Shown: positions 2,262 through 15,535 of the stretch, piece by piece
Position numbering within the stretch: position 1 is the stretch's first letter
How the letters are laid out: each line of letters begins with the position of its first letter
DNA from: Chitinophagaceae bacterium
GTDB lineage: Bacteria > Bacteroidota > Bacteroidia > Chitinophagales > Chitinophagaceae
DNA length: 16,510 nucleotides
NCBI GenBank assembly: GCA_004173255.1
Contig: SDZZ01000146.1
Span: 1-16,510 of the forward strand
Direction of reading: 5' to 3'
Notes under the pieces: model-generated
What the model was told of the DNA's origin: nothing
Database searches by the model: none
What the model saw: only the letters and a program-made list of their open reading frames with translations
Program-made: the position numbers and the translations under genes

Positions 2262-2942
2262 TCACCCCTTCTCATGCGCGTACACCGCAAACAGCTTCCA
2301 GAAGTGTCCCGGCTTTGCAAAATCAAACCGGTGTTTCTTGAAATTATTCAGCACCAGGTCGATTGTTGTCCCACTCAGGTGAAACTGCCCGATCATAATC
2401 TCGGATCCGGCCACATACAACCCGGTCTTTCCATCGCACAGGTGCACATTCTCCCGGGTTAATTCTTCAAACACCAGCACGTCGTTCATGCGGTAATCCG
2501 GGAGCGCCTGATGATGGGCTATATTGCTGTTAAATGAGACGGCAACCAGTTTGTTGTTGCTGGTCTCCGGTAAAACAAGCTTCGGAAATTCAGCCGCACT
2601 ATCAAACGCCAGTTCATTCCTCACCCCCCTCATGTAAACCGTATCACTGATAAAAGGAACGTCCCGCATCTGAAGGTTGATAATCCGGCCTTCGTCTTCC
2701 AGCAACTTGTCACCATTGTATTGCAGGATCTCGTTTACGGACAATACCTCCTGTACAAATTTGCTTAGCGGTATGCAAAAATAATTGGCAATTTTGATTG
2801 CGGTCTCCAGTTTGGGCTCCGCACGGTTCTCCTCGTACGAAGAAATATTTCCACGGGTGAGCTCAAATAAATCGGCAAAAGCTTGCTGACTGAGGTTCTT
2901 AGCCGTCCTGATTTTTTTTATATTGGTACCCGTCTTCAGCAT
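2262..2942 (-). CDS. XRE-family (Cro/CI-type HTH) transcriptional regulator with an uncharacterised C-terminal domain
   Basis: 226 aa. N-terminus IKKIRTAKNLSQQAFADLFELTRGNISSYENRAEPKLETAIKIANYF is a classic HTH_XRE. The C-terminal ~130 aa lack the GDSM Ser/Lys dyad of LexA/S24 peptidases, so peptidase activity is not supported. It is transcribed divergently from the pspA operon. Confidence 0.75.
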   Translation of the reverse strand: MLKTGTNIKKIRTAKNLSQQAFADLFELTRGNISSYEENRAEPKLETAIKIANYFCIPLSKFVQEVLSVNEILQYNGDKLLEDEGRIINLQMRDVPFISDTVYMRGVRNELAFDSAAEFPKLVLPETSNNKLVAVSFNSNIAHHQALPDYRMNDVLVFEELTRENVHLCDGKTGLYVAGSEIMIGQFHLSGTTIDLVLNNFKKHRFDFAKPGHFWKLFAVYAHEKG

Positions 2943-3065: not shown

Positions 3066-3266
3066 ATGTTTAAACAGCTGCTGCAGAAAAACCGGGATAT
3101 GATCCATGGTGCCTTTGTGATCAATGAAGAAGGCAACAAGGTCCTGTTCCGGTACACGATGCAGCTGGAAAATATCAATTTCAATGAATTTGAAGGCGCC
3201 ATCAATTCATTGGGTTTGCTGCTGAGCGAGTATTACCAACAAATTATTAATTTTTCAAAATTGTAG
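3066..3266 (+). CDS. Small hypothetical protein (66 aa), probably the first gene of the pspA operon
   Basis: The ORF ends at TAG 3264-3266, 4 bp before the pspA ATG. It is on the same strand and sits right after the operator-bearing promoter. I recognise no family. It overlaps an antisense ORF 3011..3205 that is less plausible. Confidence 0.4.
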   Translation: MFKQLLQKNRDMIHGAFVINEEGNKVLFRYTMQLENINFNEFEGAINSLGLLLSEYYQQIINFSKL

Positions 3267-3270
3267 TATT

Positions 3271-3969
3271 ATGAATCTGTTTAAAAGAATCTTCAGGATC
3301 GGACAGGCTGAAATCCATGCTGCTGTTGAAAAAATGGAAGATCCGGTAAAAATGACCGAGCAGGGGCTGCGCGAACTGAGGGAAGACCTGGCACAGGCGA
3401 CCGAAGCCTATGCCCGCGTGAAGGCCCTGGCCATCCGGACCGAAAATGAAAAAGAAGTTTGCCAGAAAGAGTCGCTGAACTACGCCGAAAAAGCTATATT
3501 GATCATGCAAAAAGCACAGCATGGCGAAGTGGAAATCGTGAAAGCCGAACAACTGGCCCGTGAAGCACTCTCACTGCGCCGGCAATACTACACGGACTCC
3601 GAAAATCTTGCCGTGCAGGTAGTTGCTCACCAGCAAAGCTCCCAGGAAATGCTGAATAATATCGGCATCCTAAAAGAGAACCTGGCGAAATGGGAAAAAG
3701 AACTGAAAACACTGAAGGCACGGGTGAAAGTGAGCAAGGCCACGCAGCAGGTAAACAAACAACTGGCCCAGCTGGATACGAACGGCACCATTGCCATGCT
3801 GGAACGGATGAAAGAAAAAGTGGAAGACCAGGAAGCCCTGTCGAAAGCCTATGGTGAAATAGCAAGGGATAAACACACCATGAAGGACGAACTGGACAAG
3901 ATCCTGAAAGATGATACCACGTCGATAGAAAAAGACCTGGCTGCGATAAAGACCAAGCTTGGGATGTAG
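3271..3969 (+). CDS. pspA: PspA/IM30 family protein (phage-shock protein A / Vipp1 / LiaH; bacterial ESCRT-III superfamily)
   Basis: 232 aa. The N-terminus MNLFKRIFRIGQAEIHAAVEKMEDPVKMTEQGLRELREDL matches the PspA signature (F-R-x-x-I-x-A-x-x-x-K-x-EDP-x-K-M...). The rest is long heptad-rich helical sequence of typical PspA length. Confidence 0.85.
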   Translation: MNLFKRIFRIGQAEIHAAVEKMEDPVKMTEQGLRELREDLAQATEAYARVKALAIRTENEKEVCQKESLNYAEKAILIMQKAQHGEVEIVKAEQLAREALSLRRQYYTDSENLAVQVVAHQQSSQEMLNNIGILKENLAKWEKELKTLKARVKVSKATQQVNKQLAQLDTNGTIAMLERMKEKVEDQEALSKAYGEIARDKHTMKDELDKILKDDTTSIEKDLAAIKTKLGM

Positions 3970-4253: not shown

Positions 4254-4934
4254 ATGCTCTCCACCTTATCCGAACTACTGTTCCATCCGCTATCCAACGC
4301 TATCATGACTATCCTGTCAGGCATTACGGCGTTGTACTGGATTTTCTCCTTCCTGGCAGGCGACTTCCTGGGTGATATGGATTTTGCACCCGAGGTGGAT
4401 GGCGGAATTGGCGTGGATACAGATGCTGATATCGATGCAGGGGAAGCGGGGGGTGAACAATCATTCTTTTCGAAAGCGCTGGAGTTTGTCAACGTGGGCA
4501 AAGTGCCGTTCATGATCGTATACAGCGTGTTTAAATTCATAGCATGGATCATTACACTGCTTAGTTCGGTCGTTTTTAAAATCGCAGACTGGGGCTGGAA
4601 GTCCGCGTTGATCCTGATCCCCGTCTTTATCATCGCATTCCTCATTACCAGGTATGCAACAAAACCATTAGTGAAGATGTACAATGCCATGGGCTATAAC
4701 GGCGAAGAAGCACACGACCTCATTGGCCGGATCGCCAGGATGCGCTCAGCCGTAACCGGCGACAAGATCGGTGCGGCAGAACTGGTGATCAATAACGATG
4801 TGATCCGCATCAATGTCAAAAGCAAATCGGGCGACCCTATCAACTACAACTCCGAAGTCATGATCGCTGACGAATCGACCGATAAACGATACTATTACGT
4901 AGTACCCGAAATAACATTAAACAATATCCTTTAA
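4254..4934 (+). CDS. NfeD/YqiJ-like membrane protein (partner of SPFH/flotillin proteins)
   Basis: About 226 aa from ATG 4254 (the track ORF begins at 4170, inside the repeat). It has hydrophobic TM segments (ILSGITALYWIFSFLAG; FMIVYSVFKFIAWIITLLSSVVF; ALILIPVFIIAFLI) and a C-terminal soluble beta-rich region (VTGDKIGAAELVINNDVIRINVKS...) consistent with an NfeD-type OB-fold. It sits immediately upstream of a flotillin gene, as in yqiJ-yqiK and nfeD-floT pairs. Confidence 0.7.
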   Translation: MLSTLSELLFHPLSNAIMTILSGITALYWIFSFLAGDFLGDMDFAPEVDGGIGVDTDADIDAGEAGGEQSFFSKALEFVNVGKVPFMIVYSVFKFIAWIITLLSSVVFKIADWGWKSALILIPVFIIAFLITRYATKPLVKMYNAMGYNGEEAHDLIGRIARMRSAVTGDKIGAAELVINNDVIRINVKSKSGDPINYNSEVMIADESTDKRYYYVVPEITLNNIL

Positions 4935-5016: not shown

Positions 5017-7050
5017 ATGTTTGACGCACTAGGCGGAATTACCCTCGTTATTATCGGAAGCGTCGCCTTCCTTGTTTTCATCATCCTCGCTGCATTCGCC
5101 AGCTTCTATAAAAAAATCCCACAGGGAAAGGCAATTGTACGAACCGGTGTGGGCGGCGGTAAAGTCGCTTTCAACCAGGGTATGTATGTGATCCCCATCC
5201 TGCATAAAATGGAGATCATGGACATCTCCGTCAAAAAACTGCAGATCGACCGGATGGAAGGTGAAGGACTGATCTGTAAAGACAATATCCGGGCAGACAT
5301 TAAGGTAGCCTTCTTCGTCCGCGTCAATAAAAGTGTTGAAGACGTCCTGAACGTAGCACAGATCATCGGCACGGAACGAGCCAGCGACACGGAAACACTC
5401 ACCAACCTGTTCGAAGCCAAATTTTCGGAAGCACTGAAAACCGTGGGTAAAAAATTTGACTTCATTTCCCTGTATGAAGCACGCCGGGAATTCAGGAATG
5501 AAATCCTTGATATCATCGGGACCGACCTGAACGGCTACATCCTGGATGATTGTGCCATCGACTACCTGGAACAAACCGAAATGAAATTCCTGAGTCCGGG
5601 TAATATCCTCGATTCGGAAGGCATCCGCAAAATCACCGAACTGACTGCGGCGCAGAATATCAACGCCAACCTGATCCGCCGGGAAGAAGAAAAAGTGATC
5701 AAGAAACAAAACGTGGAAGCACGCGAAGCGATTCTTGAACTGGACCGCCAGCTGGCCGAAAAAGAAGAGAAACAAAAACGCGAGATCGATAACGTTAAGT
5801 CACGCGAGTACGCCGAAACGCTCAAGGTACGGGAAGAAGAACGACTGAAATCGGAAACCGTCCGCATCAAGACTGATGAGAGCCTTGCTGTACAGGAAGA
5901 AAATAAACTACGCCAGGTGATCATCGCTGCAAAAAACAAGGAACGTACCAATGCAGTGGAAACGGAACGTGTGGAAAAAGACCGCGCACTCGAAGCGAAC
6001 GAGCGGGAAAAGATTGTTACCCTGGCACAGATTGAAAAGGAACGCAATATCGAGGTGGAAAAGAAAAATATCCAGGATGTGATCCGCGAAAGGGTTAAAC
6101 TGGAAAAAGGGGTAGCAGAAGAACAGCAAAACATGAAGGACATCGAATCTTTCCGTACCGTAGAGCGTGCGAAAACAGTGGGCATCACCGACGCAAGCAG
6201 GCTGGCCGAAGAAAAACTGATCTACACCGTGAAAGCCGCAGAAGCGGATAAAAAAGCAGCGGGTGAAAAAGCACAACAGATGATCATCGATGCAGAAGCG
6301 AAAAAAGAAGCTTCTGTAAAAGAAGCAGAAGCACGTAAGATACTGGCTGACGCTATGGCGCGCGAAGAAGCCACACTTGGCTTATCTGAAGCAGAAGTAA
6401 TGATTGCCAAAGCCGAAGCGCTCGAACGCCAGGGTATGGTCGATGCAGGCGTAGTAGAAAAAATGGCTGAAGCAAGACGAAAAGAAGGACTCGCCGAAGC
6501 GGAAATAACCCGCGAAAAAGCATTCGCCGAAGCCGCAGGTATATCCGAAAAAGCGGAAGCCATGAAAAAAATGGATGGCGTGGGTAAGGAACACGAAGAA
6601 TTCAAACTGGTACTGCAAAAGGACAAGGAAATTGCACTGGCACATATCAGTATCAACAAGGATATTGCTGTTGCGCAGGCCGACGTACTGGGCACCGCAC
6701 TTAAGACCGCGAAGATCGACATCGTGGGTGGCGAAACCATGTTCTTTCAGAACATCGTGAACCAGATCTCCAACGCCAAAGGGTTCGACCGATTGATCAA
6801 TGAAAGTGAAAATGCAACCGCAATAAAAAATGCCCTGCTGGGCGATAGCGAAGGTGGCAACCCGCTGGAACGCATCCGGAATTTTGCAGAGAAATACAAG
6901 ATCTCTTCAAATGATTTAAAGAACCTGACCATCTCGGGCCTGATCCTGAAGATGCAGTCCAACAGCTCCGATGACGACCGCAATTCGCTGCTCGACCTGA
7001 GCCGGATCGCCAATAGCCTCGGCCTGGCAAACAAGAAGCTGAACGCCTAA
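5017..7050 (+). CDS. Flotillin-like SPFH/band-7 family protein (YqiK/FloT-like)
   Basis: 677 aa. N-terminal TM helix (ITLVIIGSVAFLVFIILAAFA), an SPFH domain (GKAIVRTGVGGGKVAFNQGMYVIPILHKMEIMDISVKKLQI...), then a very long Glu/Ala/Lys-rich coiled-coil flotillin domain (EAEAKKEASVKEAEARKILADAMAREEA...). The antisense ORFs in this span (5562..6188, 6222..6740) are low-complexity artefacts. Confidence 0.9.
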   Translation: MFDALGGITLVIIGSVAFLVFIILAAFASFYKKIPQGKAIVRTGVGGGKVAFNQGMYVIPILHKMEIMDISVKKLQIDRMEGEGLICKDNIRADIKVAFFVRVNKSVEDVLNVAQIIGTERASDTETLTNLFEAKFSEALKTVGKKFDFISLYEARREFRNEILDIIGTDLNGYILDDCAIDYLEQTEMKFLSPGNILDSEGIRKITELTAAQNINANLIRREEEKVIKKQNVEAREAILELDRQLAEKEEKQKREIDNVKSREYAETLKVREEERLKSETVRIKTDESLAVQEENKLRQVIIAAKNKERTNAVETERVEKDRALEANEREKIVTLAQIEKERNIEVEKKNIQDVIRERVKLEKGVAEEQQNMKDIESFRTVERAKTVGITDASRLAEEKLIYTVKAAEADKKAAGEKAQQMIIDAEAKKEASVKEAEARKILADAMAREEATLGLSEAEVMIAKAEALERQGMVDAGVVEKMAEARRKEGLAEAEITREKAFAEAAGISEKAEAMKKMDGVGKEHEEFKLVLQKDKEIALAHISINKDIAVAQADVLGTALKTAKIDIVGGETMFFQNIVNQISNAKGFDRLINESENATAIKNALLGDSEGGNPLERIRNFAEKYKISSNDLKNLTISGLILKMQSNSSDDDRNSLLDLSRIANSLGLANKKLNA

Positions 7051-7067
7051 TACTCCCGGTAAAACGG

Positions 7068-7101
7068 ACAGTAACCGCACCCGCATGGATGCGGTTACTG
7101 T
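7068..7101 (+). terminator. Stem-loop (12-bp perfect stem, 10-nt loop) between flotillin and the giant ATPase gene
   Basis: ACAGTAACCGCA (7068-7079), loop CCCGCATGGA, TGCGGTTACTGT (7090-7101). It begins 18 nt after the flotillin stop and has no clear U-tract. It could be an intrinsic terminator/attenuator or an RNA-processing or stability element. Confidence 0.4.
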
Positions 7102-7131
7102 TACTTACTGACCATACCCCGCGTGATCATC

Positions 7132-10100
7132 ATGGATGTAAAAGATAAAAACCAGGGATCGGCACTCGATTCCGGCACATACGAAATAATCAGGAACAGG
7201 CTCGATGCACAACGGGTCGACCTGGGTGCACGACTGGCGAAGCTGAATGCCGCGCGGCACGAGATCTTCAGCGCAACCGGTTTTGAACTGATCGCCAACC
7301 AGCGGATCACGACTGAAAACCATGGCGAAGCCCGTGGGCTGATTGCCCTGGGTGACCTCTGCATTTTTGGATACAACGTGCATTTTGGCCTCAGGGAAAA
7401 CATAAAACTGAGCGACGTATTCAGCGTTTACCGGTTTGCCAGCGACCATTTTGAACCGCAGCCGTTAACACTCATCGATGACCCGGGATTTATAACCGAC
7501 TTCACTAACCTGTACAAGTACTACCGGGATTCCCTTTTTGCCAAATTCCACCTGGCCGGAAATTACCTGTTCATGATCTTCCAGACCAGCAAAAACCCGG
7601 AAGACAAAAAGGCCTTCAAATGGATGATCAGGGGCAATACGCTGCAGTATGTCGATGATCGCAGCCTGCAGGAAGTGCAGAAAGCCCCGCAACACGACTT
7701 CCACTGGAACCGTACCAGCCTGGAAGACCGCCGGCTCGGTGTTCACCCGCATATCTCCATCCTCGATAAGGTGTTTATCGAAGCCATTGGTGGCGATATC
7801 ACTTTTAAAATTGAAAACAATACAGCCACCGGCCGCGGTATTTATTCCGAACCTGTGATGAACCGGGATCAGCAGCTCGATGATGCAGAATACTATTACG
7901 CCGATCTCGGTAACCTGATCGCCATAAAAATCCGCCCCTACCAGGAGGAAGCACGGTCGTTTATATTCAACATCCGTACCCGCGAAGTCAAACCAATCCG
8001 GATGCTCCTCGATGCGGGCATCCTGCTGCCCGACAATCAGGGTGTCATTTTCCCGAACGGCTACTACCTGCAGAACGGGGAGTATAAAATATTTGAGTCT
8101 GACCTTTCCAATCTCGAATTCATCAGGTCCATCGCGTCGCCCAACGGGGAAGACCTGCTTTACGTCTTTTACCAGGTGCGGCTCAACACATACGTGCTGA
8201 TGTCGTACAATATCATTTCACACCAGGTGGAAACGCCCATCATCTGCAACGGCTTCACCGTTTTTAACGATGGTAAACTGATCTACTTCCGATCCGAACA
8301 GGAGGCAGTACGCCACCACCAGGTGCAGATCTGGCAAACCCCCTACACAGCAGTGCTGCAGGAAAATGAAGCCATGCAGGATAATGTGCTGTTCAAGATC
8401 GGCAACAAGGATATCGTGAGCGCCATGTCGGAAAGCCACGAAATCATGCAGCTGCTGGGCAAGGAAGATTCATTCGAACGTCTCTACGAAGACATCAATA
8501 AAAAAGCCAATGACCTGGTCGACTCCTACTTCTGGATCAGGGATGAAGCAGCATTCAATCTTGCTGCACCACTCGAACAGATCCGGGATATAGCCGCTAC
8601 TGCCATTGACGAATTTGCCCGGGTACAGGCCCAGCGCCAGCATGCCCGCGACACCATGGCCGCCATGCAGAAAAAAGTGGAACAACTGGTGATCGATGTT
8701 AAAAACAGCGTGGTCACTTCCCTCGACCAGCTGGTAAAAATACTGGCGGGCGTTCGTGATATGCAGGGAGCGGTGATCGACCTGTCCAATGTAAAATATA
8801 TCCAGCCCGAACAGGTGGCTAAACTGAAAGAACTACTCGACCATTATAACGGCAGCCTTTCACAGGATACAATCAACTTCCTGCTGAAGGACCAGGCATT
8901 ACAGCCATACGAACAGAAAGTAACCGACCAGAAAGCCGCAGTGGCGAAAGTGACTAAAGTGGTCGAGGCCCAGGAAATTGAAAAAGCAATTACCGGTATT
9001 GCGGGCGAACTCGAAATGCTGATCGATATCCTCAACAGTTTGAAAATCGACGACAGCACCCAAAGCACCCGCATCATCGAGAAAATCTCCCTGATCTTTT
9101 CTTCACTGAATGAAGTGAAAGCCGACCTGGTGCGCAACATCCGCTCACTCCGCAACAAAGAAGCCACCGGTGAATTTTATGCACAGCTTACACTGCTGGA
9201 ACAGGGCATCGTAAGTTTCCTTGACCTGTCCACTACACCCGATAAGGCTGAGAACTATTTTACCAAGGTGAGCGTGCAGATCGAGGAACTGGAATCGCGC
9301 TTCGCTGACTTCCCCGACTTTGTGTTGAAGATCGCCGATAAACGGGACGAGGTTATCAAGGCATTCAACGTTAAAAAAGAAATGCTGGTGGCGGCCATTA
9401 ACAAACGGACCGCTTCGCTTGAACAGATCGGTCTGCGCGTACTGAAAAACATCAGCAACAAGGCCGCGTCTTTTGACAGCAAGGAAAAGATCTATGCCTT
9501 CTTCTCGGCCGACCTGATGATCGGGAAAGTGCGCAGCCTGGCCGAAGAACTGGCTGCACTCGGCGATGTGGCCAAAGCAGAGAATCTCGAAAACCAGTTG
9601 AAGCTGGCGCAGGAAGAGGCATTGCGCAACCTGAAAGATAAAACGGACCTGTTCGTCGACGGGCAGAATATTATTTCACTGGGTGACCACAAATTCGTGG
9701 TGAATAAACAGGTGCTTGACCTCAGTATCATCCGGAAAGACGAAAAATTATTCTATCACCTTACCGGCACCAGTTTTTATAAGGAGGTCAGCGCGGAAAA
9801 CCTGTATCAATACCGCAACATCTGGGAGCAGGAGATCATTTCGGAAAATGCAGCTGTGTACCGCGGCGAATACCTGGCCTACGAAACTTACCTGGCAAGC
9901 CTTTCAGCCGATACAGGATGGGATGCTGTCACATTTATCAATGAACGGGTAGAACGGGATTATACAGCTGCATATCTCAAAGGCGTGCACAATACCGATG
10001 CGCTGGCCATTTACCAGCAGCTGAAAACAATTTTCGATGCACTGGGTATTCTCCGTTTTGCCCCATCGGTGAGGGCTGCGGCACAATTATTCTGGTTCCG

Positions 10101-11976
10101 GCTCGATGTGGCATCACAGGAAAAACTGCAGCATTTAATTACAGCTGCCGCTTCTATCGAAGATAGTTTCCCGGGCAGCCGCCAGTACTCTTTTGTCATT
10201 GATCGTATCAGCAACCAATACAATACCCTGGCGGTTCCAGCCATCGCTTTAGCCGACGCGTCCGATGTTGCCGGATACCTTTACCGCGAATTTGCCACCG
10301 GCCGCAACTTCACTGCCAGCCAGCAGGCGGTTAAAATCAGGAAGGGGTTCAATGATTTTTTACTGTCAAATAAAAAACTCGAACTCTTCAGGCAGGACTC
10401 GGAAAACGGTTCGTTCAGCCTGGAAGAAAAGTTTTTTGTGATCCAGAACTGGCTGCAGGCATTTTTAGCAAAAGATGGTGGCGACCAGTTGTACATTACC
10501 GAGGCTGTATGCCTGCTGCTGTTCCGCGATCATGCCTACCGTGAACGACCGGCCAACGACCACGCAGTGGTGGGCAATCTTAAAGGCAGCCACGGGGTCA
10601 TTGTTGAACAGCAATACCAGCTCCACTTTCATCGCTTCCTGGAAAAAATGTCCGGCTATACCTCTGCTATTGTGCCCGCATTTACGGCGTTCAATCAACT
10701 GAAGACGGAGCTGGCCGCTGCTTATCGCCAGCAACTGCGGATCAACGAATTTGAGCCGCGTGTGCTGAGTTCGTTTGTACGAAACCGGCTTATCAATGAA
10801 ATATATTTCCCGCTCATCGGTGGCAATCTTGCCAAACAGATCGGCAGTGCGGGCGATGATAAACGCACAGCCCGGATGGGCATGTTGCTGCTGGTATCCC
10901 CTCCCGGCTATGGTAAGACCACCTTGATGGAATATCTGTCCCGTACTATGGGATTACATTTTGTAAAAATCAACGGGCCGACTATCGGTCACAGCATTAC
11001 ATCGATCGACCCCGTGGAAGCCACCACCTCCGGTGCCAGGGAAGAACTGAAAAAGATCAACCTGGCCATGGAGATGGCAGACAACGTGATGTTGTATCTC
11101 GACGATATCCAGCACTGCAGTGCCGAGTTCCTGCAGAAGTTTATTTCGCTGGCCGATGGCCAGCGCAAGATGGATGGCATTTTTGAAGGCAACAGCCGCA
11201 CCTACGATCTTCGCGGCAAAAGATTCTGCATTGTGATGGCCGGTAATCCATACACGGAAAGCGGCGAACAATTCAAAATCCCGGACATGCTGGCCAACCG
11301 GGCGGATGTGTACAACCTCGGCGATGTGATCGGTTCATCAGACCAGTTATTTAACCTGAGCCTGGTTGAAAATGCAGTAGCGGAGAACCGTTACCTGCAA
11401 AGGATTACCAACCGGAGTTTTGATGACCTCTATAAACTGGTTGATTACCTGGAAACCGGTGCAGAAATGATGCCGGTGCTGGAAGGCAATTACGTGGGCC
11501 AGGAAGTGGACGATGCGCTGGCTGTATTGAAAAATGTACTGGAAGTACGCAAAGTGGTGATCCAGGTGAACCAGCATTATATCGCCAGCGCTGCCATGAA
11601 AGATAGTTACCGTACAGAACCCGCATTCAAACTGCAGGGCTCTTATCGCAATATGAATAAGATGGTTGGTAAAATTGTACCAATGATGAACCGGCAGGAA
11701 GTGGATACATTAATGCTGTCCCACTATGAAAGCGAATCACAGACGCTCACCTCCGATGCCGAGGCAAACCTGCTGAAGTTAAAAGAGCTGATGGGTAACC
11801 AGTCGGACCAGGAACGCCAGCGCTGGGAACAGATCAAAACCATTTTTCGAAAGAATAATAAGTTCGGCGGACTGGATAGCAGCGACACATCAGGTCAGAT
11901 GCTGATGCAGCTCAGTAGTTTTAATGAACACCTGGAAGCAATTGCGAGTGCAATGCAGAATGGCAAAACAAAATAA
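7132..11976 (+). CDS. Giant (about 1615 aa) uncharacterised protein with a C-terminal MoxR/AAA_5 (dynein-related) type ATPase domain
   Basis: The ORF is 4.85 kb and uninterrupted. The track starts it at GTG 7123, but ATG 7132 is more likely. Walker A is LLLVSPPGYGKTTL (G-Y-G-K-T at nt 10906-10920). Walker B is VMLYLDDIQ (nt about 11091-11111). IVMAGNPYTESGEQFKIPDMLANRADVYNL resembles the MoxR/AAA_5 ATxNP...LPxAxLDRF sensor/arginine region. Before the ATPase there is a roughly 430-aa beta-rich N-terminal region and roughly 800 aa of mostly helical/coiled-coil sequence. After it there is a roughly 200-aa C-terminal tail. Confidence 0.9.
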   Translation: MDVKDKNQGSALDSGTYEIIRNRLDAQRVDLGARLAKLNAARHEIFSATGFELIANQRITTENHGEARGLIALGDLCIFGYNVHFGLRENIKLSDVFSVYRFASDHFEPQPLTLIDDPGFITDFTNLYKYYRDSLFAKFHLAGNYLFMIFQTSKNPEDKKAFKWMIRGNTLQYVDDRSLQEVQKAPQHDFHWNRTSLEDRRLGVHPHISILDKVFIEAIGGDITFKIENNTATGRGIYSEPVMNRDQQLDDAEYYYADLGNLIAIKIRPYQEEARSFIFNIRTREVKPIRMLLDAGILLPDNQGVIFPNGYYLQNGEYKIFESDLSNLEFIRSIASPNGEDLLYVFYQVRLNTYVLMSYNIISHQVETPIICNGFTVFNDGKLIYFRSEQEAVRHHQVQIWQTPYTAVLQENEAMQDNVLFKIGNKDIVSAMSESHEIMQLLGKEDSFERLYEDINKKANDLVDSYFWIRDEAAFNLAAPLEQIRDIAATAIDEFARVQAQRQHARDTMAAMQKKVEQLVIDVKNSVVTSLDQLVKILAGVRDMQGAVIDLSNVKYIQPEQVAKLKELLDHYNGSLSQDTINFLLKDQALQPYEQKVTDQKAAVAKVTKVVEAQEIEKAITGIAGELEMLIDILNSLKIDDSTQSTRIIEKISLIFSSLNEVKADLVRNIRSLRNKEATGEFYAQLTLLEQGIVSFLDLSTTPDKAENYFTKVSVQIEELESRFADFPDFVLKIADKRDEVIKAFNVKKEMLVAAINKRTASLEQIGLRVLKNISNKAASFDSKEKIYAFFSADLMIGKVRSLAEELAALGDVAKAENLENQLKLAQEEALRNLKDKTDLFVDGQNIISLGDHKFVVNKQVLDLSIIRKDEKLFYHLTGTSFYKEVSAENLYQYRNIWEQEIISENAAVYRGEYLAYETYLASLSADTGWDAVTFINERVERDYTAAYLKGVHNTDALAIYQQLKTIFDALGILRFAPSVRAAAQLFWFRLDVASQEKLQHLITAAASIEDSFPGSRQYSFVIDRISNQYNTLAVPAIALADASDVAGYLYREFATGRNFTASQQAVKIRKGFNDFLLSNKKLELFRQDSENGSFSLEEKFFVIQNWLQAFLAKDGGDQLYITEAVCLLLFRDHAYRERPANDHAVVGNLKGSHGVIVEQQYQLHFHRFLEKMSGYTSAIVPAFTAFNQLKTELAAAYRQQLRINEFEPRVLSSFVRNRLINEIYFPLIGGNLAKQIGSAGDDKRTARMGMLLLVSPPGYGKTTLMEYLSRTMGLHFVKINGPTIGHSITSIDPVEATTSGAREELKKINLAMEMADNVMLYLDDIQHCSAEFLQKFISLADGQRKMDGIFEGNSRTYDLRGKRFCIVMAGNPYTESGEQFKIPDMLANRADVYNLGDVIGSSDQLFNLSLVENAVAENRYLQRITNRSFDDLYKLVDYLETGAEMMPVLEGNYVGQEVDDALAVLKNVLEVRKVVIQVNQHYIASAAMKDSYRTEPAFKLQGSYRNMNKMVGKIVPMMNRQEVDTLMLSHYESESQTLTSDAEANLLKLKELMGNQSDQERQRWEQIKTIFRKNNKFGGLDSSDTSGQMLMQLSSFNEHLEAIASAMQNGKTK

Positions 11977-14614: not shown

Positions 14615-15535
14615 TCAGGCCATCGAGTCCTGATTCTCGGACTGATAGCTATTGGAATCCTGGAAAATGCGCATCTTACTGTACAGGGTCTTTCGGCTGA
14701 TCTTCAGGATTTCAGCGGCTTTGCGTTTGTTATTACGTGTTTCGTACAATGTTTTGCAGATAAGATCATACTCGGCTTTAAGCACTGCTTTTTTAAGGAA
14801 CAACGGGTCGTGCGACTGGTAGGAGCGCACAGCCGCAGGCAGCAGCCGGGGCGCAACAGGTACCCCGTTTTCACCAAGGAACACAGCATCACGCACCAGC
14901 TCCCTCAACTCGTACAGGTTACCTGGCCACGCATAATTGCCCAGTATCTCCATCGCCTCCTCACTGAAACCAGGCACTTCCCGATTCCATTCCAGGTTTG
15001 TTTTTGCAAGGAAGTAGTTCAGGAAAAACTGGATGGTCTTTTTATTATGCCGAAGGGGAGGTATAGCGAGTGTGTTTTTTTCCGGTATGACAGCCAGCTG
15101 CTCGTGGGGGCTACGTGTGCCCCCGGTTTTACTGAGGCCGGTTATTATGCGGCACTGCAGGACATCAGAGATTCGGGGCAGGAACTGTTCCTGTTCCTCG
15201 AAGGGCAACTCGCTAAAATTATTCAGCCACACCGTACCGCCCCGGATGGATTCCAGGAGTCCCTCATCGGCCAGTTTCTGTAACTCCGCAAATTCCCTGC
15301 GAATAGGCTGCGAAAGCTCTACCAGCGCAGGATACGCAGCCGAGGTGATGCAGTTGATTATAAGGAATGGCCGCTCGTTGCGCTCACTCAGGTCATGGAT
15401 AAGTTCAGCAATCCATTCCCTTCCTGAATCTTTGGGCCCGGCCAGTATCACCGGCAGGTCATTAGCAGCAATCGTGTTGACCTGTTCCACAAAACCCGGT
15501 ATCATTACCTGGGTATTATTCATTTCTGTTTCCAT
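14615..15535 (-). CDS. Sigma54-activator (NtrC/EBP)-like regulator with degenerate ATPase motifs and C-terminal Fis-type HTH. It has no receiver domain
   Basis: 306 aa. YAWPGNLYELRELV matches the EBP Y-x-WPGN-x-REL motif. The C-terminal AEILKISRKTLYSKMR is a Fis-type HTH. Walker A is GPKDSGRE (versus GESGTGKE) and Walker B is WLNNF (versus FLDEI). There is no GAFTGA motif, so it probably cannot hydrolyse ATP or contact sigma54. Confidence 0.75.
   Translation of the reverse strand: METEMNNTQVMIPGFVEQVNTIAANDLPVILAGPKDSGREWIAELIHDLSERNERPFLIINCITSAAYPALVELSQPIRREFAELQKLADEGLLESIRGGTVWLNNFSELPFEEQEQFLPRISDVLQCRIITGLSKTGGTRSPHEQLAVIPEKNTLAIPPLRHNKKTIQFFLNYFLAKTNLEWNREVPGFSEEAMEILGNYAWPGNLYELRELVRDAVFLGENGVPVAPRLLPAAVRSYQSHDPLFLKKAVLKAEYDLICKTLYETRNNKRKAAEILKISRKTLYSKMRIFQDSNSYQSENQDSMA

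What the first reader, a model, noticed from the sequence alone, without database searches (positions are those of the whole stretch)
7132..11976. 1615-aa multidomain protein: beta-rich N-domain, about 800-aa helical stalk, C-terminal MoxR/AAA_5 P-loop ATPase. Family unrecognised
Only the ATPase module is recognisable: Walker A SPPGYGKT at nt 10897-10920, Walker B LYLDD at about 11091-11105, and MoxR-like MAGNP...IPDMLANRADVYNL. The first roughly 430 aa are beta-strand-rich, with repeated aromatic/Gly/Asn-rich segments (possible propeller or lectin-like fold). Residues about 430-1230 are long helical segments with heptad character. This is an architecture typical of mechanochemical or scaffold ATPases. 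A single AAA_5 module at the end of a very long stalk is uncommon among described bacterial proteins.
Basis: seen in the sequence. Interest (0 to 1): 0.75.

Follow-up and report, generated by a model that had tools for sequence, protein, structure and literature searches.

The report
Flotillin/PspA-operon giant AAA+ ATPase
This 1614-residue protein is a real, active-looking ATPase of a widespread, catalogued but never characterised bacterial family that is always encoded next to a flotillin and its membrane partner (here also PspA), so it most likely remodels these membrane-repair scaffolds.

Summary
The ORF (7132-11976, +) and its ATPase motifs are real. "Family unrecognised" is wrong. Pfam covers the N-domain end to end (DUF3686, E=4.5e-163) and part of the middle (DUF7902). 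More than 4000 homologues exist, which NCBI names "DNA repair ATPase". Ravi et al. 2024 described the operon type, and by synteny it matches P. aeruginosa bacABCDEF, with BacE/PA3728 as the ATPase. No functional study was found.

AlphaFold models (pLDDT 90 and 87) show:
- an N-terminal helix;
- a 26-strand propeller-like domain with no close solved relative;
- about 430 residues of helical bundles, not an 800-residue stalk;
- a small beta domain;
- a helical domain;

No second AAA module was detected. Walker A, Walker B, sensor 1 and the arginine-finger motif are near-invariant in homologues only 26-40% identical over residues 1-1200.

The gene follows a YqiJ/NfeD-like gene and a YqiK-type flotillin gene in six bacterial lineages. 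In Bacteroidota a 66-aa gene, pspA and a divergent XRE regulator are also present.

Best inference: an ATP-driven remodeller or recycler of flotillin and/or PspA assemblies. This is untested. Verdict: new member of a known, uncharacterised family; moderate interest.

The parts
7132..11976 (+). Complete gene for the 1614-aa DUF3686-DUF7902-AAA+ ATPase (BacE/PA3728-type; NCBI name 'DNA repair ATPase')
   Evidence: ORF and translation. Identical to an NCBI MAG protein, 'AAA family ATPase [Chitinophagaceae bacterium]'. Pfam hits.
7132..7281 (+). aa 1-50: disordered N-terminus followed by a long helix (aa 11-45)
   Evidence: AlphaFold model mcf8876a0416b.
7282..8346 (+). aa 51-405: 26-strand beta-propeller-like domain, the core of Pfam DUF3686
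8347..9666 (+). aa 406-845: all-helical region made of bundles of 10-58-residue helices; includes Pfam DUF7902 (aa 588-669, nt 8893-9138)
   Evidence: AlphaFold model m83762ec051dd. Pfam DUF7902 at E=1.1e-25. Patchy 3.5-residue periodicity. No PDB sequence relative.
9667..9795 (+). aa 846-888: small beta domain; G851 is invariant and D836 just upstream is also invariant
   Evidence: Strands at aa 847-885 in the model. Invariant columns in alignment A2.
9796..10746 (+). aa 889-1205: helical domain with a small beta element (aa 1136-1165) and a long helix (aa 1166-1202) leading into the ATPase. This is the least conserved region. It is not a degenerate AAA module.
   Evidence: Model secondary structure. 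hhalign of this region against the AAA region gives probability 0.2. Conservation per region.
10747..11811 (+). aa 1206-1560: single AAA+ module, made of a conserved pre-AAA segment, the alpha/beta core (aa 1252-1414), the helical lid and the invariant Q1502-G-S-Y-R1506 motif
10897..10920 (+). Walker A, SPPGYGKT (aa 1256-1263)
   Evidence: Read directly from the sequence. SPPGYGK is identical in 71 of 72 divergent full-length homologues; one of them has S for T1263 (GKS), and the single exception is a garbled sequence.
11092..11106 (+). Walker B, LYLDD (aa 1321-1325), followed by IQH
   Evidence: D1324, D1325, Q1327 and H1328 are invariant.
11167..11208 (+). aa 1346-1359: beta-hairpin between helix alpha3 and strand beta4 (pre-sensor-1 hairpin)
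   Evidence: Strands at model positions 932-937 and 940-945. The assignment as a pre-sensor-1 insert is inferred from its position in the AAA+ fold.
11236..11301 (+). aa 1369-1390: MAGNPYTESGEQFKIPDMLANR, holding sensor-1 N1372 and the putative arginine finger R1390
   Evidence: G1371, N1372, P1373, G1378, F1381, P1384, M1386, L1387 and R1390 are invariant. The roles of N1372 and R1390 are inferred by analogy with the RuvB and MoxR motifs.
5017..7050 (+). Upstream partner gene: 677-aa protein with a transmembrane segment, an SPFH domain and a coiled coil; flotillin of the E. coli YqiK type
   Evidence: hhalign against E. coli YqiK gives probability 99.9, E=9e-37 and 30% identity over 400 columns. 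Found in all 75 Bacteroidota loci that hold at least 1.9 kb upstream, on the same strand upstream in 74 of them, and in 5 other lineages.
4254..4934 (+). Partner gene: YqiJ/short-NfeD-like three-TM protein (226 aa from ATG 4254)
   Evidence: Weak Pfam YqiJ_N hit at E=5.6e-4. Conserved position in the related loci.
3271..3969 (+). Partner gene: PspA/IM30 (bacterial ESCRT-III family), 232 aa
   Evidence: Pfam PspA_IM30 at E=9.9e-38. Present in about 61 of the 80 Bacteroidota loci.
3066..3266 (+). Conserved 66-aa ORF that ends 4 nt before the pspA ATG; probable fifth operon member
   Evidence: tblastn finds it at 61-95% identity in 61 loci, always just upstream of pspA (alignment A6).
2262..2942 (-). 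Divergently transcribed XRE-family HTH protein (226 aa), co-conserved with the pspA-containing form of the operon; candidate local regulator
   Evidence: Pfam HTH_3. Found divergently upstream of pspA in about 60 loci.
7057..7110 (+). Stable RNA hairpin in the flotillin-ATPase intergenic spacer
   Evidence: Minimum free energy -29.1 kcal/mol, z-score -4.0, and 0 of 200 shuffles fold as well.

Best explanation
What it is (shown). The gene encodes a member of the conserved DUF3686-DUF7902-AAA+ family. Databases call this family 'DNA repair ATPase' or 'MoxR-like ATPase'. By synteny it corresponds to P. aeruginosa BacE/PA3728. It is the last gene of a membrane-stress operon: 66-aa protein, PspA, YqiJ/NfeD-like membrane protein, YqiK-type flotillin, ATPase. 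An XRE regulator is transcribed divergently from this operon.

How it most likely works (inferred). The protein is cytoplasmic. It would oligomerise through its single C-terminal AAA+ module of the MoxR/dynein/midasin type, probably as a hexamer of about 1.1 MDa. Each subunit would project a rigidly conserved arm made of helical bundles, a beta-propeller-like head and the intervening small domains. The arms would bind the flotillin/NfeD scaffold on the inner face of the membrane and, where present, the PspA polymer. ATP hydrolysis would then pull on or pry apart these assemblies, so that they can be assembled, reshaped or recycled during membrane stress. In this reading the protein is a functional analogue, not a homologue, of Vps4 acting on ESCRT-III. 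It is also a further example of an SPFH scaffold paired with an AAA+ machine.
For: Identity:
- Full-length Pfam DUF3686 and DUF7902 hits.
- More than 4000 homologues with the same Pfam set in Bacteroidota, Gammaproteobacteria, Planctomycetota, Myxococcota, Acidobacteriota and Sumerlaeota.
- Representatives are collinear down to 26% identity. Alignment gaps are only 0-9% per region, and 0-5% outside the C-terminal tail.

Active ATPase:
- Walker A, Walker B, sensor 1, the PDMLANRAD motif and the QGSYR motif are near-invariant.
- The AAA core averages 63% identity to divergent homologues, against 22-38% in the arm regions.

AAA+ clade:
- The model has a pre-sensor-1 hairpin.
- Pfam AAA_5 scores above its cut-off.

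Partnership with flotillin:
- A flotillin gene is present in all 75 Bacteroidota loci that have at least 1.9 kb of upstream sequence. It lies upstream on the same strand in 74 of them, and is rearranged in L023.
- The same YqiJ-like, flotillin, ATPase order occurs in Pseudomonas, Planctomycetota, Acidobacteriota, Myxococcota, a representative only 27% identical, and plasmid pQBR103.
- The flotillin is a YqiK homologue.

Link to PspA:
- pspA is in the operon in about 61 of the 80 Bacteroidota loci and in Pseudomonas.

Literature:
- The P. aeruginosa bac genes are co-transcribed, and all products rise 6- to 13-fold in a bacA mutant (PMC10948618).
- An SPFH protein recruits PspA to the membrane in B. 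subtilis (PMC8581546; abstract seen).
- A 2025 review states that no Vps4-like ATPase is known for bacterial PspA (PMC7619361).
Against: - No experiment on any family member was found. The mechanism rests on gene neighbourhood and fold.
- The loop at the pore-loop-1 position (GPTIGHSITSIDP, aa 1282-1294) has no aromatic residue. Canonical threading of a substrate, as in Vps4 or ClpX, is therefore doubtful.
- Some lineages insert unrelated genes between the flotillin and ATPase genes. One locus has the two genes rearranged (L023).
- PspA is absent from many loci, so it cannot be the universal substrate.
- A P. aeruginosa paFlo3 (flotillin) mutant shows only mild phenotypes (PMC13086221).
Confidence: 0.5

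Rival explanations
1. The flotillin/NfeD scaffold is a platform rather than the substrate. It would localise and gate the ATPase, as HflK/C does for FtsH. The ATPase would then act as a MoxR-like chaperone on other membrane-associated clients, such as damaged or mis-assembled complexes.
For: The closest solved single-module folds are the MoxR-type maturases CbbQ and NorQ. SPFH scaffolds pairing with AAA+ machines is established knowledge for HflK/C-FtsH and for prohibitin with the m-AAA protease. The large propeller-plus-helical arm could be a client-binding adaptor.
Against: No VWA/MIDAS partner, which is typical of MoxR systems, is encoded in any of the neighbourhoods examined. No candidate client gene is conserved beside the triad.
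Confidence: 0.22
2. The protein is itself a mechanochemical membrane remodeller, like dynamin or dynein. ATP-driven movements of its long arms would bend, tether or fuse membrane, with flotillin and PspA as co-factors.
For: The rigidly conserved arm geometry, with almost no alignment gaps, suggests a lever or spacer. The top fold matches include dynein and midasin motor modules.
Against: No transmembrane or amphipathic membrane-binding element was noticed in the ATPase on reading its sequence and models (no dedicated test was run). There is only one AAA module per chain. The long dynein alignments have very poor rmsd and TM-score of about 0.13.
Confidence: 0.1
3. It is part of an anti-phage or conflict system. 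A large NTPase with a repeat-type sensor domain would be coupled to membrane-acting effectors and, in Proteobacteria, to a PLD-type effector.
For: Proteobacterial operons add a PLDc_2 gene. Recent work links PspA to CBASS regulation (PMC11153139; title and abstract only). The divergent regulator shares its HTH with defence-system regulators in PADLOC.
Against: The ATPase, flotillin, YqiJ-like protein and PspA have no PADLOC hit. There is no homologue in 50,697 phage records, and only 13 of 72,556 plasmid records carry one, mostly megaplasmids or chromids. The cassette shows conserved gene order and 57-73% amino-acid identity across Bacteroidota genera, which is unlike patchy defence islands.
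Confidence: 0.06
4. It is a DNA repair ATPase, as the database name says.
For: Only the Pfam and NCBI name, plus weak local similarity of the Walker A region to RuvB.
Against: The ATPase is a contiguous AAA+ module, not an SMC/Rad50/RecN-type ABC head. No DNA-binding or nuclease domain was found by Pfam, NCBIfam or PDB profile searches. All conserved neighbours are membrane proteins. No paper in the searched library contains the term DUF3686.
Confidence: 0.03

Closest known systems
DUF3686/DUF7902 AAA+ family ('DNA repair ATPase'; P. aeruginosa BacE = PA3728/PA14_16190; the 'novel AAA+ ATPase' of Ravi et al. 2024)
   Same: Same Pfam set and same length class. The sequences are collinear end to end. 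The ATPase motifs are identical. The operon partners are the same: YqiJ/NfeD-like protein, flotillin and PspA.
   Different: The Bacteroidota form replaces the DUF2170 (BacA) gene with a 66-aa ORF that shows no detectable similarity to it. It lacks the PLD gene (BacF). It has a divergent XRE regulator, whereas a sigma-54 promoter is reported for bac. The assignment BacE = this family rests on synteny in P. indica and on published annotation, not on the PA3728 sequence itself.
MoxR-type AAA+ ATPases (CbbQ, NorQ, RavA; Pfam AAA_5/AAA_3)
   Different: No VWA/MIDAS partner gene is present. There is a 1200-residue N-terminal extension. A sequence profile of the AAA region finds no MoxR chain among the 60 best PDB hits shown. 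Walker B is DD rather than DE.
Vps4 (and archaeal CdvC) acting on ESCRT-III
   Same: An AAA+ ATPase encoded with an ESCRT-III-superfamily protein (PspA). The inferred role as a polymer remodeller is the same.
HflK/C-FtsH and other SPFH scaffold plus AAA+ pairs
   Same: An SPFH-family scaffold and an AAA+ machine are genetically coupled at the membrane.
   Different: The ATPase has no transmembrane anchor and no protease domain. The SPFH protein is a YqiK-type flotillin, expected from what is known of YqiK-type flotillins to face the cytoplasm.
Dynein and midasin (Rea1/Mdn1) AAA modules
   Different: There is one AAA module per chain instead of six concatenated ones. The long alignments have poor rmsd. 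There is no evidence of a stalk or microtubule-binding-type hairpin.

Membership tests
DUF3686-DUF7902-AAA+ family (BacE type) | Full-length DUF3686 N-terminal domain | tested here: met
   PF12458 matches aa 30-467, profile positions 1-448 of 448, E=4.5e-163, 543 bits against a cut-off of 25.
DUF3686-DUF7902-AAA+ family (BacE type) | DUF7902 in the helical middle region | tested here: met
   PF25472 matches aa 588-669, E=1.1e-25, 90 bits against a cut-off of 26.
DUF3686-DUF7902-AAA+ family (BacE type) | Single C-terminal AAA+ module with the motifs SPPGYGKT, DDIQH, AGNPYT and PDMLANRAD | tested here: met
   All these motifs are present in the window protein and near-invariant in 71 of 72 divergent full-length homologues.
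DUF3686-DUF7902-AAA+ family (BacE type) | Encoded directly after a YqiJ/NfeD-like gene and a flotillin gene | tested here: met
   True in the window, in the Bacteroidota loci and in other phyla.
MoxR / AAA_5 clade of AAA+ | Pfam AAA_5 or AAA_3 match above the curated cut-off | tested here: inconclusive
   AAA_5 scores 29.4 bits (cut-off 22), but PF00004 AAA scores slightly higher at 31.7 bits (cut-off 21.2). There is no AAA_3 hit.
MoxR / AAA_5 clade of AAA+ | Fold closest to clade members; pre-sensor-1 beta-hairpin present | tested here: met
MoxR / AAA_5 clade of AAA+ | Helix-2 insert and pre-sensor-2 insert that repositions the lid | not testable with these tools
   Model coordinates could not be inspected. 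The secondary-structure string shows only a short helix, and no hairpin, in the beta2-alpha2 loop.
MoxR / AAA_5 clade of AAA+ | VWA/MIDAS-domain partner protein encoded nearby | tested here: not met
   No VWA family appears among the called genes of six neighbourhoods or in the window.
Vps4 / classical AAA clade | N-terminal MIT domain; classical-clade core without a pre-sensor-1 hairpin; aromatic pore loop 1 | tested here: not met
SMC/Rad50/RecN-type 'DNA repair ATPases' | ABC-type ATPase head split by a coiled coil, with the signature motif; DNA-related gene context | tested here: not met
   The ATPase is a contiguous AAA+ module at the C-terminus. There is no SMC, Rad50 or RecN hit in Pfam or NCBIfam for this protein. 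The conserved neighbours are membrane proteins.
Known anti-phage defence system proteins | Match to a PADLOC model, or a mobile or phage-associated distribution | tested here: not met
   There is no PADLOC hit for the ATPase, flotillin, YqiJ-like protein or PspA. There are no phage hits, and 13 plasmid records carry a homologue.
Flotillin family (for the upstream partner gene at 5017-7050) | Homology to a recognised flotillin across the SPFH domain and coiled coil | tested here: met
   hhalign against E. coli YqiK gives probability 99.9 and E=9e-37 over 400 columns. Pfam and PDB sequence searches alone found nothing.

The most novel reading that the evidence does not exclude
This family is the missing ATP-driven remodeller of bacterial membrane-repair scaffolds. 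It would be a ring of roughly 1.1 MDa built from a MoxR/dynein-clade AAA+ module, whose propeller-tipped arms grip flotillin cages and PspA (ESCRT-III) polymers and disassemble or recycle them. That would make it an independently evolved counterpart of Vps4, which current reviews state is absent from bacteria.
Probability: 0.3. Interest if true: 0.8.

Novelty: new member of a known kind. Interest (0 to 1): 0.45.

Why it matters
PspA/Vipp1 were recently recognised as bacterial ESCRT-III proteins. Flotillins form large membrane cages. How either assembly is taken apart or recycled in bacteria is an open question, and a 2025 review states that no Vps4-like ATPase is known for PspA (PMC7619361).

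A strongly conserved ATPase with intact catalytic motifs is encoded with flotillin, an NfeD-like protein and often PspA across at least six lineages. That makes it an obvious candidate and makes the question testable.

In P. aeruginosa the same operon (bac) affects biofilm, rhamnolipid production and virulence. Its ATPase gene, PA3728, is listed as recurrently mutated in cystic-fibrosis isolates (PMC8190622).

The widely propagated name 'DNA repair ATPase' has no support in any result here and is probably misleading.

Tried and rejected
- **Second, degenerate AAA module.** hhalign of the N-domain, helical and middle sub-alignments against the AAA sub-alignment gave probability 0.2 each. The model shows no second alpha/beta core. 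Rejected.
- **Sharper family assignment of the AAA module by sequence profile.** Only 35-68-residue matches centred on Walker A were found, to Rix7, p97 and RuvB. Uninformative.
- **NCBIfam.** No family model matches apart from sub-threshold RuvB hits.
- **Defence-system models and mobile-element distribution.** Negative.
- **A conserved fifth partner between the flotillin and ATPase genes.** In loci with a gap there, the inserted genes are unrelated: a predicted secreted 337-aa protein, lipoproteins, a 477-aa secreted protein and others. Rejected.
- **The 66-aa ORF as a short DUF2170/BacA homologue.** hhalign probability 0.2. Not supported, although Ravi et al. report a distinct CesT/Tir-like protein next to this class of pspA genes.
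- **The sigma-54 activator-like gene at 14615-15535 as regulator.** It is not conserved in the related loci. Rejected as part of the system.
- **Pfam scan of the diverse alignment A2.** The precomputed Pfam lists of 240 homologues show no additional domains.
- **Literature.** No paper contains 'DUF3686', and none combines YqiK, YqiJ and ATPase.
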